In this document: piece after piece, positions 57,896 through 64,000 of the stretch
How positions within the stretch are numbered: position 1 is the stretch's first letter
How the letters are laid out: every line of letters begins with the position of its first letter
DNA from: a virus
Lineage: Duplodnaviria > Caudoviricetes
Length of the DNA: 64,000 bases
IMG/VR virus record: IMGVR_UViG_3300037067_005614
Coordinates: 111-64,110 of that record
Strand: one strand, 5' to 3'
Made by a program: the position numbers and the translations under genes
Notes under the pieces: model-generated
The model's database searches: none
What the model was told of the DNA's origin: nothing
What the model saw: only the letters and a program-made list of their open reading frames with translations

Positions 57896-58291
57896 ATGAT
57901 TCACATTCGTTGCGTTGCTGTATTAGAAACGATGTGGGGAACAGAAGGTAAGGCCCCGGGTATGTTTCGCATCAACCCCCAGAACCATACAGGACGTAGA
58001 CTGTATTGGCTCCTTGGCCATGATAATCTGTGGGTTACGAATGCTTGTCCTCAGCAAGTAGCTAACGCCAGGCAACATGGTAAACCAGACTCTGAGTGGT
58101 TGTCGTATAATCTACAACGGTGTAGCTACGGTCTGTTGCTAGTGTGTGGTAAAGTTGCACAAGCTACGTTTGCTCAGTGTGATTACAAGCCTTCGTGTAG
58201 AATACTAGGGATGCCCCATCCGGCAGCTAGAACTTGGACTAAAGCAATGCTGTTGGAGTGGCAGCAACGAATACAATCTGGAGTTCATTAA
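57896..58291 (+). CDS. Divergent UDG-superfamily fold protein
   Basis: TGRRL, VTN.C, LLVCGKVAQ and PHPAAR follow the UDG-superfamily motif order. Confidence 0.5.
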   Translation: MIHIRCVAVLETMWGTEGKAPGMFRINPQNHTGRRLYWLLGHDNLWVTNACPQQVANARQHGKPDSEWLSYNLQRCSYGLLLVCGKVAQATFAQCDYKPSCRILGMPHPAARTWTKAMLLEWQQRIQSGVH

Positions 58292-58304
58292 CGAGGAGAA
58301 ATCA

Positions 58305-58520
58305 ATGCCTAGCAGTAGTGAGCTGTTTGACAAGATTGAGGATCTAAGGACTCAAGCAGACGACATGGAACGGCATTTTCTAGCAGAAGCTGGATGGAAG
58401 TGGGTTTGTAATACTCCCGCTAGCCTTTGGTTATGGGAAAAGAAACTTCCAGACGGTCGAACAGTTTTGACTGATCAAGAGGTAGCTCTGCTAATCCAAG
58501 AGGAGTTAGACATAGCATGA
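58305..58520 (+). CDS. Hypothetical protein
   Basis: GAGGAG RBS. Confidence 0.5.
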   Translation: MPSSSELFDKIEDLRTQADDMERHFLAEAGWKWVCNTPASLWLWEKKLPDGRTVLTDQEVALLIQEELDIA

Positions 58521-58804
58521 AAATTGAAGACGTCAAACTTGGAGACTACGTTCTAGTAACTATACAACCAGATGAATGGGAGAGTAGTGGTGAAGAAAAG
58601 GAAGACTTAGAGGCTTGGGTTGGGCAGGTCGGTATAGTGGTAGAAGTAGACCCAGACTTACAACAGTGTCTCTGTAGATTTCCTTCATATGACAACGAGA
58701 ATGAAACCGGCCAAAGAAACATCGAGTGGGAATCACTCAGTTTTGTTAGCCGGCCTGCGTCAAAGCTAACTAGGTACTGCTTAACCGAGGTAAGAGGCTC
58801 ATGA
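58517..58804 (+). CDS. Small SH3/KOW-like hypothetical protein
   Basis: KLGDYV.V...GQVG.VVEVD; ATGA overlaps on both sides. Confidence 0.45.
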   Translation: MKIEDVKLGDYVLVTIQPDEWESSGEEKEDLEAWVGQVGIVVEVDPDLQQCLCRFPSYDNENETGQRNIEWESLSFVSRPASKLTRYCLTEVRGS

Positions 58805-59715
58805 AGATTGAAGAGGTTGCTAAGCTGACTCCGATGGAGAGGTTCCTATATTGGATAAGTGAAAGATACGACATTCATCTTAAAAGAGCTGCTGGCAAAC
58901 CAAAACCTTGGACAAACGACAAGGTGATGCAGTCTGTGTTCTTCACGAATCCTTACCGTGAGAACGATAAGACGACGGTGTGGTTCAGAAAGAATATTAG
59001 AGATCCACTTAAGAGAGACTCTAACGTGTTGATGGCTACAGTCATTTTTCGCTGGTTTAACTATATTCCAACCGGAGAAGTTCTGTGGAATTATGGAAAA
59101 GACCAGGACGGCACCTGTGATTTGCTAACTCAATGGAATGAGAAGTTAGCCGTTCATGTCTTGCAACAACAGCAGAAGCGACACGGTAAAGTGTTTACTG
59201 GCGCTTACATGATCAAGGCTGGCAATGGCCCCCCTGGATGCAAGATACCTAACGTGTGTAAGTCTATATCAAAGGTATGGGCAGAACGTAAGCGATTGGT
59301 TCAGGTCTGCAAAAATGATTGTAGATTGCAAGCCTTGTGGGAAGAGTTATGCAAGTTTGACAATCTTGGTGGATTCATGGCTTATGAGATTGTGTGTGAC
59401 TTGCGATACACCCACCTGCTTAGTAAGGCTAGTGATGTTGATACCTGGACTAACCTGGGGCCGGGGGCTAACCGAGGATTAGCTAGGGTGTTAGGCGATA
59501 AGATGGTAGTTGGCAAGAAGGGTAAAATGGTACCTGATATTCGGCCGGATCGGGTAGAACAGGTTCGTGCTTTGCTGGCTATAGTTCGTAAAAAGTTACC
59601 AAACATGCCTCGATTTGAAATGCGGGAAATCGAGCACTCACTCTGTGAGATGGACAAGTATGAGAGGGCTAGGCTTGGAGAAGGTCGGCTGAAAAGGAAG
59701 TACCAAGGTTCTTAG
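58801..59715 (+). CDS. aGPT-Pplase1-family (thymidine hypermodification) helical protein
   Basis: ER..I...R..G.P.PWT.D.V....F.N.YRE.D..T, FRWFN, GGFMAYEIV.DL, GPGA.RGL, EIEH.LCE.DKY.R. Confidence 0.85.
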   Translation: MKIEEVAKLTPMERFLYWISERYDIHLKRAAGKPKPWTNDKVMQSVFFTNPYRENDKTTVWFRKNIRDPLKRDSNVLMATVIFRWFNYIPTGEVLWNYGKDQDGTCDLLTQWNEKLAVHVLQQQQKRHGKVFTGAYMIKAGNGPPGCKIPNVCKSISKVWAERKRLVQVCKNDCRLQALWEELCKFDNLGGFMAYEIVCDLRYTHLLSKASDVDTWTNLGPGANRGLARVLGDKMVVGKKGKMVPDIRPDRVEQVRALLAIVRKKLPNMPRFEMREIEHSLCEMDKYERARLGEGRLKRKYQGS

Positions 59716-59765
59716 ACTCTGGCAAACCTTGTTGATCCTAAGGCGTCTATAATTGGAGACTATCG

Positions 59766-61588: not shown

Positions 61589-61904
61589 AGCATTGCTCCT
61601 AGTAAATGTGGGGGTGTAGCCCATCTTGTCCTGGTGTGCAAAGAACCGACGTGCAGCAAAGGCATCAGCAAACTGCTTGACCTTGCGCTGGCCGTTGGCA
61701 GTGGTGTAGGACACTGCGGCAGGCATCGGCTTGCGATCCATTGGGAACATTGGGCTGACCCCGGTTTGGTTTTGGTTGGAACTCCCAACCACGCCAGTCA
61801 TTGTAATTCAAGCTGGGAAAGATAATAGCCCACTAACGGGTGGTTTTGGAAAGATTGTTGCAACTTAGTATTACTAACCATCTTACGTCTACAGGAATTT
61901 TTGG

Positions 61905-62456
61905 ATGCTCACCGTTTTGCTCGATATGGACGAGGTGATCACAGATTTTGTCGGTGCCGCCTTGCGGGAACATGGCTGGACCAGACACCGATTGGAGAAG
62001 GTTTGGACGCCTGGAACATGGTCGATTGTTGAACCGATGGAAATGACCCAGCAACAATTCTGGGCACCAATCAAAGCCGCTGGCACAGATTTCTGGGCCT
62101 ACATGAATCCAACTCCATGGGCAGAAAAGATACTGGGATTAATGAGCAAATACGACTGGATGATTGTCACATCTCCATCAAAGTGTGCTGCCGCAGGTAC
62201 AGGCAAGATAAGATGGATCAAACAACAGCTAGGGGAAGACTTCGAGGACTACGTAATTACCCCATGCAAATCGAGGTTGGCTAGGCCAGACTACGTTTTG
62301 ATTGACGACCGAGAAGAGACAGTTAAGAATTTTGTTAAGGCTGGTGGTAGAGGTATTGTATTCCCCTCTCGCCACAATTTTCTACACGAATGTTCAGACC
62401 CAGTACAGTATGTCAAGTATCGATTAGAACAAGAAACACGTCAAACAGGATCATAG
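61905..62456 (+). CDS. HAD-family 5'(3')-deoxyribonucleotidase (NT5C-like)
   Basis: LDMDEVITDF, FW, TSP...GK..WI, K, LIDD. Confidence 0.8.
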   Translation: MLTVLLDMDEVITDFVGAALREHGWTRHRLEKVWTPGTWSIVEPMEMTQQQFWAPIKAAGTDFWAYMNPTPWAEKILGLMSKYDWMIVTSPSKCAAAGTGKIRWIKQQLGEDFEDYVITPCKSRLARPDYVLIDDREETVKNFVKAGGRGIVFPSRHNFLHECSDPVQYVKYRLEQETRQTGS

Positions 62457-62465
62457 ACAGCAATA

Positions 62466-63201
62466 ATGAAAAAGATTTACCCTAGGCCACTAAGTAACCC
62501 TAACCAGCCCTATGTCTACACCTGGAAATACGAAGGAGTAGTTATTTGGGTTGGTAGGGGGACTGGGATGAGAGGGGTGCCCAGACCTAGTTCAGGAAGC
62601 AATGCAGGAAGGCCTGACGTGTTGGCTAAGCTAGTGGCTAACATCTGGAGTAAGATCGACTACACAATCCTACCTTGTAAAACTGTAAAAGAGTCAATTA
62701 AGCTAGAGGAAGCTACAATTGCCTCATTAAAACCTAAGTACAATAGGGCTCCAGGAACTGGTGGATTCAAGGGGATGCACTCTATCGAAGGAAGAAAAAG
62801 AATCTCGGACCACCAAAAAATTAAGGGTGGTTAGTGATGAAACTAAACGCAAGATAAGCTTAGCCGCTAAAGGAAGAAAACATTCTGATTCTGCAAAAAT
62901 GAAGATGAGCATTTCTAGACTTGGAAAGCCTCGACCTGACATCAGACTACGAATGATAGGCAACAAAAACCTAGTCGGACATCACCACTCAGAGGAAACT
63001 AGGAGACGAATAAGTGAGGCTAATTTGGGCAGACCAGTTAGTGATTTATGTCGACTAAAGTCTAGCCAAAGGGCAATAGAAAGAAATAGAGTAAACCCAC
63101 CACGTAAAGGCAAAACGTGTTCTGCTGAACACAGACGAAAACTTAGTGAAGCCCGCAAGAGATATCTTGAAAGGAAGAAAACCGATGCATCTCAAAACTA
63201 G
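62466..63201 (+). pseudogene. GIY-YIG-like/NUMOD3 homing endonuclease split by a 1-nt frameshift
   Basis: YVY...WVGRG..R...E...YN domain (62466..62834) plus HS.ETK.KIS repeats (to 63201); deleting one A from 62815-62820 fuses them. Confidence 0.7.
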
Positions 63202-64000
63202 AAATGTTAACACGGCGTTTCAAACCCTAGTATCTGGTATCTATACCGGAAGTATCCCAACAGTCCATCGCAGTAGCCGAGCTGGTGATGTTCTTCAAGT
63301 AGAAGAGCCTGTGATTGTCACCTATAGTCACCCAAGAGAACGGGTGTTGTTTAATAAGAAACGGGATGCCCCATGTTTTTTCACGCTGTTTGAATCTCTC
63401 TGGATGTTGGCGGGACGCAATGACGTTGCACCACTGGCTTACTACAATAGCCAGATTGCTGACATTGCCAGCGATGACGGTAAGACATTCAACGGAGCTT
63501 ATGGCTATCGATGGAGAAACGGATATGGTGGACAAGAAGCTGGGGGAGACGGCCCTTACCCTTACACAGAAGACAGGAGGGTTGACCAGCTATCAATCAT
63601 AATTGACCAACTACGTAGGAAGCCTGAGTCACGTCGCTGTGTACTGCAGATGTGGGAAGTAGAATCTGATTTGCTAAAGATTGATGAAACAAAAGACTGC
63701 TGTTGCAATCTGTCAGTCTTGTTTTCAATTCGTAATGAACCATTCGATTGCCTTGATCCAACAGATCCGGCTGTGTTTATGCCAGCTAGTGATCGGGTTT
63801 ATCGTTATCTAGATATGACTGTCTACAACAGATCCAATGATATGATTTGGGGAGCGCTTGGAGCAAACGTAGTTCACTTCTCATTTCTACAGGAGTACGT
63901 GGCTAACTGCTTAGGAGTTGAAGTAGGATCGTACAATCAGGTGTCAAATAACTTGCATGTCTACACTGAGCGATGGGAACCAGAGAAGTGGTTAGCAGAA
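63185..64000 (+). CDS. Thymidylate synthase-family enzyme, probable dUMP hydroxymethylase (3' partial; absent from ORF track)
   Basis: Hand translation: MHLKTRNVN...PRERVLF..RDA..F..FESLWMLAGRND...GAYGYRWR...DQL...SRRCVLQMW...KDCCCN...RSNDMIWGALGANVVHFSFLQE...NNLHVY. Confidence 0.88.
   Translation, partial: MHLKTRNVNTAFQTLVSGIYTGSIPTVHRSSRAGDVLQVEEPVIVTYSHPRERVLFNKKRDAPCFFTLFESLWMLAGRNDVAPLAYYNSQIADIASDDGKTFNGAYGYRWRNGYGGQEAGGDGPYPYTEDRRVDQLSIIIDQLRRKPESRRCVLQMWEVESDLLKIDETKDCCCNLSVLFSIRNEPFDCLDPTDPAVFMPASDRVYRYLDMTVYNRSNDMIWGALGANVVHFSFLQEYVANCLGVEVGSYNQVSNNLHVYTERWEPEKWLAE

What the first reader, a model, noticed from the sequence alone, without database searches (positions are those of the whole stretch)
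57896..64000. Thymidine hypermodification cluster with uncharacterised extra genes
Established: dUMP hydroxymethylase + hmU-DNA kinase + aGPT-Pplase-family transferase yield hypermodified thymidines in phages such as phiW-14, SP10, ViI and M6. Seen: all three gene types, with Asn at the dUMP-specificity position (GANVVHF), plus a HAD nucleotidase that could deplete dTMP. Additional neighbours (UDG-fold 57896, DUF2284-like metal protein 60351) are not part of the pathways I know, so the final base may be new.
Basis: partly seen in the sequence, partly recalled or inferred. Interest (0 to 1): 0.75.

Follow-up and report, generated by a model that had tools for sequence, protein, structure and literature searches.

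The report
Thymine-hypermodification cluster with DUF2284 enzyme
An uncultured phage carries the known genes that replace thymine by hydroxymethyluracil and phosphorylate it in DNA, but where its relatives keep the enzymes that then attach an amino acid it has an uncharacterised metal-binding protein, so its final DNA base is unknown and may be new.

Summary
They are a TS-family dUMP hydroxymethylase cut by the contig end, a 5-hmdU DNA kinase homologue, an aGPT-Pplase-family protein, an NT5C-type HAD nucleotidase, a mini UDG-fold protein and a DUF2284-like protein.

There are three corrections.
- The "transferase" is clade 1 (Pfam PF18723, HMUDK_hel, like M6 gp55). It is not the proven amino-acid:DNA transferase (clade 2, PF18724 ADDT), which is absent from the contig.
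- The UDG-fold gene occurs in relatives with other cassettes. UDG is already linked in print to T-modified phages.
- The contig probably lacks about 40 kb (packaging, head and primase genes), not about 10%.

The DUF2284-like gene is a rare long form with a C-terminal Cys-rich domain shared with HNH endonucleases. It sits directly after the kinase in 3 of 3 long-form loci with context. In close relatives that slot holds rSAM-ADDT-PLP or other cassettes. Short-form homologues occur in phages without this pathway (0 of 50 records carry HMUDK_hel).

I read this as a new variant of kinase-type thymidine hypermodification, with the product unknown. The scan noted other variant cassettes on other DNA before, but none with DUF2284.

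The parts
53411..55705 (+). Family A DNA polymerase (3'-5' exo + pol) with a DUF4326 domain inserted at aa 197-271. It is context for the replication/modification module.
   Evidence: Pfam gives DNA_pol_A at 7.3e-30, DUF4326 at 1.4e-25 and DNA_pol_A_exo1 at 3e-4. It is 85% identical to the L006 polymerase over aa 1-761. The alignments to L007 and L011 skip aa 191-278.
57896..58291 (+). Mini (131 aa) UDG-superfamily protein. It probably removes uracil from phage DNA.
   Evidence: PF03167 gives E 0.0017, below the cut-off. The AF2 model has pLDDT 95.8. The top Foldseek hits are UdgX, UNG and SMUG1 at probability 1.0. 179 homologues were found. H108-P109-A110 and N49 are invariant or near-invariant.
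58801..59715 (+). aGPT-Pplase clade 1 / HMUDK_hel protein (M6 gp55 orthologue). It keeps the invariant Cys282-Glu283.
   Evidence: PF18723 gives E 4.7e-52 and phrog_2396 gives 1.3e-61. It is 34% identical to M6 gp55. C282 and E283 are invariant in 30 of 30 clade-1 sequences. C282 is the only Cys invariant across clade 1 and clade 2.
59766..60314 (+). P-loop kinase, a homologue of the 5-hmdU DNA kinase (M6 gp54). Walker A motif is GTHGSGKS.
   Evidence: PF18748 gives E 9.8e-5, below the cut-off. phrog_800 gives 1.4e-19. tblastn to M6 gp54 gives E 6e-14 at 26% identity. G8, G11-K14, D60, E85, R125 and R126 are invariant in 27 sequences.
60351..61097 (+). Long-form DUF2284-like protein. It has an N-terminal DUF2284 domain (aa 1-155; C20/H27/C31/C40) and a C-terminal Cys-rich domain (aa ~188-240).
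   Evidence: The ATG at 60351 has an AGGAG 8 nt upstream. 392 representatives match at E<=1e-3. 42 of 50 aligned homologues hit PF10050. The AF2 model has pLDDT 86.3. Atlas TM is 0.78 and 0.62 to DUF2284 clusters. The C-terminal part hits phrog_374 positions 197-255 at E 1.8e-4.
61115..61801 (-). Conserved Lys/Ala-rich 228-aa protein on the opposite strand. Its function is unknown and it is not cassette-specific.
   Evidence: ORF listed. Homologues lie at the same place in L006, L011 and L037 and in L086. It has no Pfam or PHROG family.
61064..61085 (-). Terminator-like hairpin just downstream of the minus-strand gene, inside the 3' end of the DUF2284-like ORF.
   Evidence: It has a 9-bp stem with 7 GC pairs and a T-rich tail. 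This is a consensus match only.
61905..62456 (+). HAD-superfamily 5'(3')-deoxyribonucleotidase (NT5C family), with motif DMDEV at aa 7-11.
   Evidence: PF06941 gives E 5.6e-9, phrog_420 gives 1.2e-19 and phrog_2643 gives 8.4e-15. A homologue lies directly upstream of the TS-like gene in 19 of 80 related loci.
62466..63201 (+). Homing-endonuclease-like insertion in two overlapping frames (62466-62834 and 62761-63201). It is not part of the pathway.
   Evidence: NUMOD3 gives E 6.2e-13. phrog_314 homing endonuclease gives E 0.0049. It is absent from L006, where the HAD and TS genes abut.
63185..64000 (+). TS-family enzyme, probably a dUMP hydroxymethylase. It is cut by the contig end and about 100 C-terminal residues are missing.
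   Evidence: PF00303 and phrog_5131. Best phage matches are PaMx11 at 48%, Yua/M6-like at 45%, SPO1-like at 35%, ViI at 34% and a T4-type td at 24.5%. It scores below every NCBIfam ThyA cut-off. The Cys in CCCN and Asn228 are invariant.

Best explanation
This is the nucleotide and DNA-modification module of a roughly 100-kb uncultured phage. The phage most likely replaces thymine by 5-hydroxymethyluracil and then modifies it on the DNA polymer.

Proposed steps:
1. The TS-family enzyme converts dUMP to 5-hmdUMP. The HAD nucleotidase trims the competing dTMP/dUMP pool. The phage polymerase builds hmU-DNA. The mini-UDG removes misincorporated uracil. All of this is inferred from homology.
2. The P-loop kinase phosphorylates 5-hmdU in DNA to 5-PmdU, as shown for its homologue M6 gp54.
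3. No clade-2 amino-acid:DNA transferase (ADDT) is present. The clade-1 paralogue keeps the family's invariant Cys-Glu. It is proposed to attack C6 and expel phosphate, giving the exocyclic methylene intermediate.
4. The long-form DUF2284 protein fills the hypervariable 'tailoring cassette' slot right after the kinase. It has a Cys3-His metal site and a DNA-enzyme-type Cys-rich C-terminal domain. It is proposed to act on the DNA-borne intermediate and so decide the final base.

That base is not predictable from known pathways. Steps 3 and 4 are inference.
For: TS-like enzyme:
- It groups with enzymes of phages reported to carry hmU-derived thymidine modifications (M6, PaMx11, ViI), and with SPO1-like phages, whose hmU DNA I recall rather than read here. 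It does not group with classical ThyA.
- The catalytic Cys and the uracil-specifying Asn are invariant.

The slot after the kinase:
- In relatives it holds rSAM-ADDT-PLP in L006, L007, L012, L032 and L054. L006 has a polymerase 85% identical to the window's.
- It holds ADDT + carbamoyltransferase + Asn synthase in L033, rSAM/SPASM in L008, and unknown genes in L028 and L014.
- DUF2284-long lies directly after the kinase in the window, L011 and L086. Those are all 3 long-form loci with context, and their polymerases are only 48-51% identical to the window's.
- DUF2284-like genes are absent from 5 of 5 relatives with other cassettes (positive control 5 of 5).

ADDT:
- It is absent from the contig, from the L011 and L086 records, and from G058, which stands in for the missing 40 kb.
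- 5 of 16 related records that are >=90% complete have HMUDK_hel but no ADDT.

Clade 1 as a possible catalyst:
- C282 and E283 are invariant in 30 of 30 clade-1 sequences, and C282 aligns with the only invariant Cys of clade 2.
- In clade 2 a conserved Cys and a nearby Glu are essential (PMC8989533, section read).
- SP10 is reported to make glutamyl-thymidine. It has only a kinase-clade-1 fusion next to its dUMP hydroxymethylase.
Against: - M6 gp55 (clade 1) was not needed for product formation in vitro, and Pfam now calls the family a 'helical domain' of the kinase. A catalytic role for the 304-aa protein is therefore unproven.
- The DUF2284 core is a general phage gene. 78 of 80 viral loci carry short forms outside any T-modification context, often beside UDG-PolA, clamp-loader-like or ThyX genes.
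- 0 of 50 short-form records have HMUDK_hel (50 of the 78 were tested). The domain's activity therefore need not be base modification.
- The DUF2284-like model has no solved-structure match, so no chemistry can be read from the fold.
- The contig lacks about 40 kb, so a further transferase cannot be excluded directly.
- The kinase is below Pfam's gathering score.
- No DNA chemistry was measured.
Confidence: 0.45

Rival explanations
1. The cluster is a kinase + clade-1 thymidine modification system whose product is fixed by those two proteins alone (5-PmdU itself, or an adduct with an abundant cellular nucleophile). The DUF2284-long protein is a replication, repair or nucleotide-pool accessory that merely sits there.
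For: - Short-form DUF2284 homologues lie in replication modules of phages without this pathway. 0 of 50 such records carry HMUDK_hel.
- The long forms keep the same core residues as the short forms.
- Clusters with HMUDK_hel and no ADDT exist in complete genomes (5 of 16).
Against: - The long form is found only in this slot (3 of 3 with context). It is tightly packed against the kinase gene: the gap is 36 nt in the window and the genes overlap in L011.
- It is absent from 5 of 5 relatives that carry other cassettes. A general accessory would be expected to persist there.
Confidence: 0.3
2. The pathway is conventional. An ADDT-type transferase and its tailoring enzymes lie in the part of the genome that the contig lacks, and the base is one of the known types.
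For: - The contig ends inside the TS-like gene.
- It lacks terminase, portal, head and primase genes that the bridging relative G058 carries. Only 2 of 35 G058 ORFs have homologues in the window.
- In G057 the ADDT lies far from the hel-kinase pair.
Against: - G058 spans the equivalent 40 kb and has no PF18724 match at E<=1. It also has no M6 gp51/52/53 homologue.
- The L011 and L086 records also lack ADDT.
- In 13 of the 15 relatives where tblastn with M6 gp51 found an ADDT, it lies after the kinase and before the TS gene; in 2 (L068, L076) it lies upstream of the kinase.
Confidence: 0.12
3. The TS-family enzyme is an ordinary thymidylate synthase and the phage DNA contains canonical thymine. 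The kinase and helical protein act on something else.
For: Only family-level evidence. TS and the hydroxymethylases share fold and residues, and the C-terminal quarter of the enzyme is missing.
Against: - It scores far below every NCBIfam ThyA cut-off (best 64.5 bits against 174.55, and 61 against 327).
- Its nearest phage homologues are in M6, PaMx11, SPO1-like and ViI-like phages, not td-type enzymes.
- It is linked to the kinase and HMUDK_hel as in M6 and SP10.
Confidence: 0.03

Closest known systems
Pseudomonas phage M6 5-NedU pathway (gp51 ADDT, gp52 PLP decarboxylase, gp53 radical SAM isomerase, gp54 5-HMUDK, gp55 clade-1 protein, gp58 TS-like); PMC8989533 and PMC5889632
   Same: It has the kinase (26% identity), the clade-1 protein (34%) and the TS-like enzyme (45%), clustered near a family A polymerase. 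The window's nearest relatives L006 and L007 carry the full M6-type rSAM-ADDT-PLP set in the same slot.
   Different: The window has no ADDT, PLP enzyme or radical SAM enzyme. Its gene order is hel-kinase rather than kinase-hel. It has an HAD nucleotidase instead of the HD hydrolase gp59. A DUF2284-long gene replaces the tailoring set.
Bacillus phage SP10 alpha-glutamylthymidine cluster (gp185 radical SAM, gp186 kinase fused to the helical domain, gp188 dUMP hydroxymethylase)
   Same: Its only aGPT-Pplase-family module is the clade-1-type one, and it sits next to the dUMP hydroxymethylase. This shows that a phage with no recorded second Pplase still carries a hypermodified thymidine.
   Different: In SP10 the kinase and helical domain are fused, whereas here they are two genes. 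SP10 has a large radical SAM protein and no DUF2284. Identity is only 25% (E 1e-7).
Pfam PF10050 DUF2284 (predicted metal-binding protein; uncharacterised)
   Same: It shares the Cys/His motif and the fold.
   Different: The window protein itself is below threshold (E 0.055). It belongs to a viral branch and carries an extra C-terminal Cys-rich domain, seen in only a few members (P0004, P0005, L011).
UDG coupled to replication in T-modified phages (SP15-like UDG-PolA fusions; PMC13697223)
   Same: A UDG-fold protein is encoded next to a family A polymerase in a phage predicted to have modified thymidine. The published rationale is removal of dU, which the modification pathway cannot handle.
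   Different: Here it is a separate 131-aa minimal UDG fold, not a domain of the polymerase. Its activity is untested.

Membership tests
[quoted passage not shown] | Sequence membership in the P-loop kinase family of M6 gp54, ViI gp67 and PhiW-14 gp37 | tested here: inconclusive
   PF18748 gives E 9.8e-5 at 22.4 bits, below the cut-off of 27. However, tblastn to the experimentally validated M6 gp54 gives E 6e-14, and phrog_800 gives 1.4e-19.
[quoted passage not shown] | Walker A P-loop, and a gene neighbourhood with HMUDK_hel and a dUMP hydroxymethylase | tested here: met
   GTHGSGKS lies at aa 8-15 and is invariant in 27 homologues. The gene is adjacent to PF18723 and 2.9 kb from the TS-like gene.
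[quoted passage not shown] | Phosphorylates 5-hmdU in DNA to 5-PmdU | not testable with these tools
   This needs the enzyme assay described in PMC8989533 section 15.
Amino acid:DNA transferase (ADDT, aGPT-Pplase clade 2; PF18724) | Sequence membership | tested here: not met
   The 304-aa protein hits only PF18723, even at E<=10. There is no PF18724 match in the contig at E<=1. M6 gp51 served as positive control at 1.4e-46.
aGPT-Pplase clade 1 / HMUDK_hel (PF18723) | Sequence membership over the full domain | tested here: met
   E 4.7e-52, covering profile positions 5-277 of 281.
aGPT-Pplase clade 1 / HMUDK_hel (PF18723) | Conserved Cys with an adjacent acidic residue (the candidate active site shared with clade 2) | tested here: met
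   C282 and E283 are invariant in 30 of 30 sequences. C282 aligns with the invariant Cys of the clade-2 sequences. That these are the residues mutated in the paper is my inference, because the residue numbers are in a figure and supplement I could not see.
dUMP hydroxymethylase (TS superfamily) | TS fold with the catalytic Cys, and Asn (not Asp) at the pyrimidine-specificity position | tested here: met
   PF00303 gives 1.3e-22. Cys and Asn228 are invariant. The Asn aligns with the Asp of MilA.
dUMP hydroxymethylase (TS superfamily) | Closer to hydroxymethylases of hmU phages than to ThyA/td | tested here: met
   Identity is 45-48% to M6/PaMx11-type, 34-35% to SPO1-like and ViI, and 24.5% to a T4-type td. 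It is below all NCBIfam ThyA cut-offs.
dUMP hydroxymethylase (TS superfamily) | Makes 5-hmdUMP rather than dTMP | not testable with these tools
   The gene is also truncated at the contig end.
Uracil-DNA glycosylase superfamily | UDG alpha/beta fold | tested here: met
   The model has pLDDT 95.8. Foldseek hits UdgX, UNG and SMUG1 at probability 1.0, with TM by query 0.5-0.63.
Uracil-DNA glycosylase superfamily | Catalytic motifs A and B of an active glycosylase | tested here: inconclusive
   An invariant H108-P109-A110 resembles motif B, and there is a near-invariant N49. Motif A is atypical (LETMWG). The motif assignments are recalled, not computed.
DUF2284 (PF10050) | Sequence and fold membership | tested here: met
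   The window protein itself is marginal (E 0.055). However, 42 of 50 aligned homologues match, and the Atlas structure match to DUF2284 clusters is TM 0.78 and 0.62.

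The most novel reading that the evidence does not exclude
The long-form DUF2284 protein is a new class of DNA-level thymidine-hypermodifying enzyme. It would be a metal-dependent protein, tethered to DNA by its Cys-rich C-terminal domain. It would capture the 5-PmdU or exocyclic-methylene intermediate made by the kinase and the clade-1 Cys enzyme. The product would be a thymine derivative not yet described, without any ADDT. This would also give the first function for DUF2284 and for clade-1 aGPT-Pplases.
Probability: 0.3. Interest if true: 0.8.

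Novelty: new variant of a known kind. Interest (0 to 1): 0.55.

Why it matters
Thymidine hypermodifications protect phage DNA from restriction, and they are a source of enzymes for DNA labelling.

Every pathway solved so far runs through the clade-2 transferase. This cluster is one of a sizeable set that keep the kinase and the clade-1 paralogue but lack that transferase: 5 of 16 near-complete related genomes do.

The cluster is compact enough to test. Three proteins can be tried on hmU-DNA to address three questions:
- what clade-1 proteins do;
- what DUF2284 does, a family with hundreds of phage members and no known function;
- whether another modified base exists.

Tried and rejected
- **Nucleotide search against phages.** Megablast of the region found nothing. 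tblastn of the UDG-like protein also found nothing.
- **DUF2284-like protein against phages.** tblastn found only two records of one 735-kb uncultured phage.
- **First locus search.** The search for related loci with the single DUF2284-like protein found no relative. The 50-row alignment was too diverse to seed a scan, but a 12-row alignment worked.
- **Solved structures.** There was no informative sequence match for the clade-1 protein, the UDG-like protein or the DUF2284 profile. The YoeB match at E 0.12 is treated as chance.
- **Foldseek on the DUF2284 model.** Nothing at E<=1e-3. The VIA-align libraries were not available, so a more sensitive fold comparison is open.
- **BLASTP of the C-terminal domain against the neighbouring HNH endonuclease.** It was not significant. 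The link rests on both proteins matching the same part of phrog_374.
- **Complex prediction.** Clade-1 protein + kinase + DUF2284-long gave no verdict (score 0.00). It is not used as evidence either way.
- **Metagenome scan for the window's own continuation.** It returned only relatives.
- **A BLAST-only impression I dropped.** From it looked as though many compact kin-hel-TS loci lack ADDT. The profile search found ADDT in several of them, so I use only the profile counts.
- **Papers and supplements.** PMC3763556 (Iyer et al. 2013) is not held. Its predictions are cited only through the two Lee et al. papers. The supplements of those papers, which hold the residue numbers and gene maps of the metagenomic clusters, could not be seen. 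They may already show a DUF2284-type gene.

Full report
**Where the window lies.** The window is bases 111-64110 of a 64,110-bp IMG/VR viral contig. The contig is classed linear, with a CheckV completeness estimate of 90%. The finding occupies the last 6 kb, and its last gene runs off the contig end.

**What is there (observation).** On the plus strand, in order:
- A family A DNA polymerase (53411-55705), with a DUF4326 domain inserted between the exonuclease and polymerase parts.
- An HNH endonuclease (55695-56354; phrog_374).
- Several small ORFs.
- A 131-aa protein (57896-58291) with a weak Pfam UDG match.
- A 304-aa PF18723 protein (58801-59715).
- A 182-aa P-loop kinase (59766-60314).
- A 248-aa DUF2284-like protein. 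Its start is the ATG at 60351, which has an AGGAG 8 nt upstream.
- An NT5C-type HAD nucleotidase (61905-62456).
- A NUMOD3 homing-endonuclease-like gene in two overlapping frames (62466-63201).
- A TS-family gene (start probably the ATG at 63185, to 64000), which is cut off.

One conserved Lys/Ala-rich gene lies on the minus strand (61115-61801).

**The TS-family enzyme.**
- It has the catalytic Cys and the motif GALGANVVHF.
- The Asn aligns with the Asp of the CMP hydroxymethylase MilA, which is the best PDB match.
- The Asn is invariant in an alignment with M6 gp58, Ab18 ORF14, PhiJL001 gp24, SP10 gp188 (annotated dUMP hydroxymethylase) and two metagenomic relatives.
- Among 834 phage records with a match, the ranking is PaMx11 (48%), Yua/M6-like (45%; one is annotated deoxyuridylate hydroxymethyltransferase), SPO1-like Bacillus phages (about 35%), ViI-like (34%) and T4-type td (24.5%) (spread listing).
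- Every NCBIfam thymidylate-synthase equivalog scores far below its cut-off.

I therefore accept the dUMP hydroxymethylase reading at about 0.85. The activity itself is untested and the C-terminal quarter is missing.

**The kinase and the 'transferase'.**
- The kinase is below Pfam's gathering score for PF18748 (22.4 against 27 bits). It matches the experimentally validated M6 gp54 at E 6e-14 and phrog_800 at 1.4e-19. It has an invariant Walker A motif.
Pfam now splits the old aGPT-Pplase family.
- M6 gp51, the glycine:DNA transferase, is PF18724 'ADDT'. M6 gp55 is PF18723 'HMUDK_hel'.
- The window protein is PF18723 only, even at E<=10. It is 34% identical to gp55.
- In the M6 reconstitution, gp54 and gp51 sufficed and gp55 could be left out (PMC8989533, passages).
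- No PF18724 match exists in the contig at E<=1, and no M6 gp51, gp52 or gp53 homologue was found by tblastn.

**Is the clade-1 protein just a helical appendage?**
- In 30 clade-1 sequences from related viral contigs, Cys282 and Glu283 are invariant.
- In a joint alignment with three clade-2 proteins, Cys282 is the only invariant Cys.
- For clade 2, a conserved Cys and a nearby Glu are essential. They are proposed to form a C6 thioether and expel phosphate, giving an exocyclic methylene (PMC8989533 section 'Amino acid insertion...'). That these are the same residues is my inference, because the numbering is in a figure and supplement I could not see.
- SP10 is reported to carry alpha-glutamylthymidine. 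It encodes the clade-1-type domain fused to its kinase (gp186), next to a radical SAM protein and the dUMP hydroxymethylase. The 2018 PNAS table lists no second Pplase for it.
- Among 50 viral records related through the TS-like gene, 40 have HMUDK_hel and 23 have ADDT. Of the 16 that are at least 90% complete, 16 have HMUDK_hel and 11 have ADDT. Five near-complete genomes therefore have the clade-1 protein without ADDT.

Systems without ADDT are thus real and not rare, and their chemistry is unknown.

**The slot after the kinase.** I compared 80 viral loci found through the TS-like protein. Gene hits within +/-10 kb were: TS 80, HMUDK_hel 64, kinase 42, polymerase 37, HAD 19, ADDT (by BLAST with M6 gp51) 15, radical SAM 11, PLP 10, UDG-like 5 and DUF2284-like 1.

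The nearest relative, L006, has a polymerase 85% identical and an HAD gene 71% identical. It shows polymerase - hel - kinase - rSAM - ADDT - PLP - minus-strand gene - HAD - TS. That is an M6-type set exactly where the window has the DUF2284-like gene. Other relatives carry other contents in that slot:
- ADDT + carbamoyltransferase-like + asparagine-synthase-like (L033).
- A radical SAM/SPASM protein (L008).
- Proteins with no family (L028, L014).

L028's record is a complete 69-kb genome with terminal repeats and no ADDT. The slot therefore behaves as a hypervariable tailoring cassette.

**The DUF2284-like protein.**
- An exhaustive profile-free search found 392 cluster representatives at E<=1e-3, most of them 150-200 aa.
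- 42 of 50 aligned members hit PF10050.
- C20, Y24, G30, C31, C40 and Q90 are invariant. H27, N33, P41-P42, H75-P76, W78 and Y88-W89 are nearly so. This fits a Cys3-His metal site.
- The AlphaFold model is confident (pLDDT 86.3). It has no solved-structure neighbour by Foldseek.
- The ESM Atlas places residues 1-155 with DUF2284 clusters (TM 0.78 viral, 0.62 archaeal).
- Only a few members are long. P0004 and P0005 align over the whole length, and L011's copy does too. P0008 also carries a Cys-rich C-terminal extension but aligns only to about residue 177.
- The extra C-terminal part (aa ~188-240, several Cys) matches phrog_374 'HNH endonuclease' at profile positions 197-255 (E 1.8e-4). That is the same segment matched by the N-terminus of the neighbouring HNH endonuclease. 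I read it as a DNA-enzyme-type, probably DNA-binding module. This is inference.

**Context test for the DUF2284-like gene.**
- Of 80 viral loci found with a 12-sequence profile, only L086 and L089 have HMUDK_hel, kinase and TS nearby (L089 is the same contig as L011). These two are the ones matched over the full length.
- In both, the gene follows the kinase directly and precedes the minus-strand gene and the TS gene. Their polymerases are only 48-51% identical to the window's. L086's hel and kinase belong to another lineage (33-34% identity).
- The other 78 loci carry short forms, often beside a UDG-polymerase fusion (16 loci), a clamp-loader-like ATPase (11) or ThyX (7).
- Of 50 of these 78 records searched whole, 0 carry HMUDK_hel (positive control 5 of 5).
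- Conversely, 0 of 5 relatives with other cassettes carry any DUF2284-like gene (positive control 5 of 5).

So the domain is a general phage protein of unknown activity. A rare long form of it has been recruited to the cassette slot of this pathway.

**The UDG-fold protein.**
- The model (pLDDT 95.8) matches UdgX, UNG, SMUG1 and TDG structures at probability 1.0.
- The family has at least 179 members of about 130-150 aa, with an invariant H-P-A near the C-terminus.
- It occurs in relatives whatever their cassette (L007, L013, L017, L032, L039).
[quoted passage not shown] It argues that dU must be removed because the modification pathway cannot use it (PMC13697223, abstract and passages).

This neighbour is therefore explained and is not a sign of a new base.

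**The HAD nucleotidase.** The gene sits directly upstream of the TS-like gene in 19 of 80 loci. M6 has an HD hydrolase at the comparable place. Its role in pool control is inferred.

**How much of the genome is missing.**
- The last 40 bases of the window occur exactly in one other IMG/VR contig, G058 (44,190 bp).
- One end of G058 lies in a TS gene that is 100% identical to the window over the last 127 nt.
- Its other end encodes homologues of the window's first genes (74% and 93% amino-acid identity).
- The roughly 40 kb between encode MazG, a primase/helicase, two methyltransferases, NUDIX, terminase, portal and head-type proteins.
- Only 2 of 35 G058 ORFs have a homologue in the window.
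- The identical UDG-like protein is on record on a 104,326-bp contig, which equals 64 + 40 kb.

The CheckV figure is therefore too high. The window's contig probably lacks about 40 kb. G058 has no ADDT and no M6 gp51-53 homologue. By proxy, the missing part probably holds no known transferase, but this cannot be shown for this phage.

**Verdict.** However, the 'transferase' is the uncharacterised clade-1 paralogue, and the UDG gene is ordinary.

The mechanism I commit to is this. hmU-DNA is made, the kinase phosphorylates it, the clade-1 Cys enzyme activates it, and the DNA-tethered DUF2284 metalloprotein sets the product. My confidence is about 0.45 for the whole chain. It is about 0.85 for the hmU and kinase steps and about 0.5 for any role of the DUF2284 protein in modification.

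It is a new variant of a known kind. I found no paper linking DUF2284 to DNA modification ('DUF2284' occurs in 2 papers, both unrelated). Earlier notes of this scan describe other variant cassettes on other DNA, none with DUF2284.

Noticed in passing
window 53999-54223 (aa 197-271 of the polymerase 53411-55705): A DUF4326 domain (E 1.4e-25) is inserted between the exonuclease and polymerase parts of the family A polymerase. It is kept in L006 and absent from L007 and L011. One review proposes DUF4326 as a rhodanese-phosphatase-type domain (PMC9503650, passage). In L129 a match of about 82 aa, 55% identical to part of the window's polymerase, lies 24 nt after a short-form DUF2284 gene. In L088 a similar match (52%) lies about 1.7 kb downstream. 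From their size and identity I take these to be stand-alone copies of the DUF4326 insert, but the matched residues were not printed.
   Followed up: partly
L038 5-2212 (record G058, relative of the window): The TS-like gene of the relative carries an in-frame insertion of roughly 440 aa, exactly inside the GAN|VVHF specificity motif (…GANA-CLSGST…VLVHN-CHFSF…). By its boundary residues it looks like an intein with an endonuclease part. The primase/helicase of the same record has a similar insertion (…CLRGDTLIW…YIHHN-C…). The boundary motifs are recalled and were not tested with a profile.
   Followed up: partly
window 1-64000 as a whole; G058: The contig lacks terminase, portal, head and primase/helicase genes that the bridging relative carries. 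The true genome is probably about 104 kb, so the CheckV estimate of 90% completeness is misleading.
   Followed up: yes
window 62466-63201: A homing-endonuclease-like gene (GIY-YIG-like N-terminus, weak; NUMOD3 repeats, strong) is split into two overlapping reading frames between the HAD and TS genes, and it overlaps the TS start. It may be frameshifted or decaying. It is absent from L006.
   Followed up: partly
window 61115-61801 (minus strand): A conserved 228-aa protein with histone-H1-like KAKAKAKPASKAAKG repeats lies on the opposite strand in the middle of the operon. It is also present in L006, L011, L037 and L086, and it is followed by a strong terminator-like hairpin (61085-61064).
   Followed up: no
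L086 8612-9004; L008 7316-7843; L014 9507-9968: In some relatives the place of the HAD nucleotidase upstream of the TS-like gene is taken by a nucleoside 2-deoxyribosyltransferase-like / DUF4406 / DUF1937 protein. This suggests alternative ways of editing the nucleotide pool. L086 was checked against PHROGs and L014 against Pfam; L008 is judged only by its N-terminal sequence.
   Followed up: partly
window 34001-40000: G+C is 0.55-0.57 here against about 0.45-0.52 elsewhere in the window, with genes mostly on the minus strand. Not examined.
   Followed up: no
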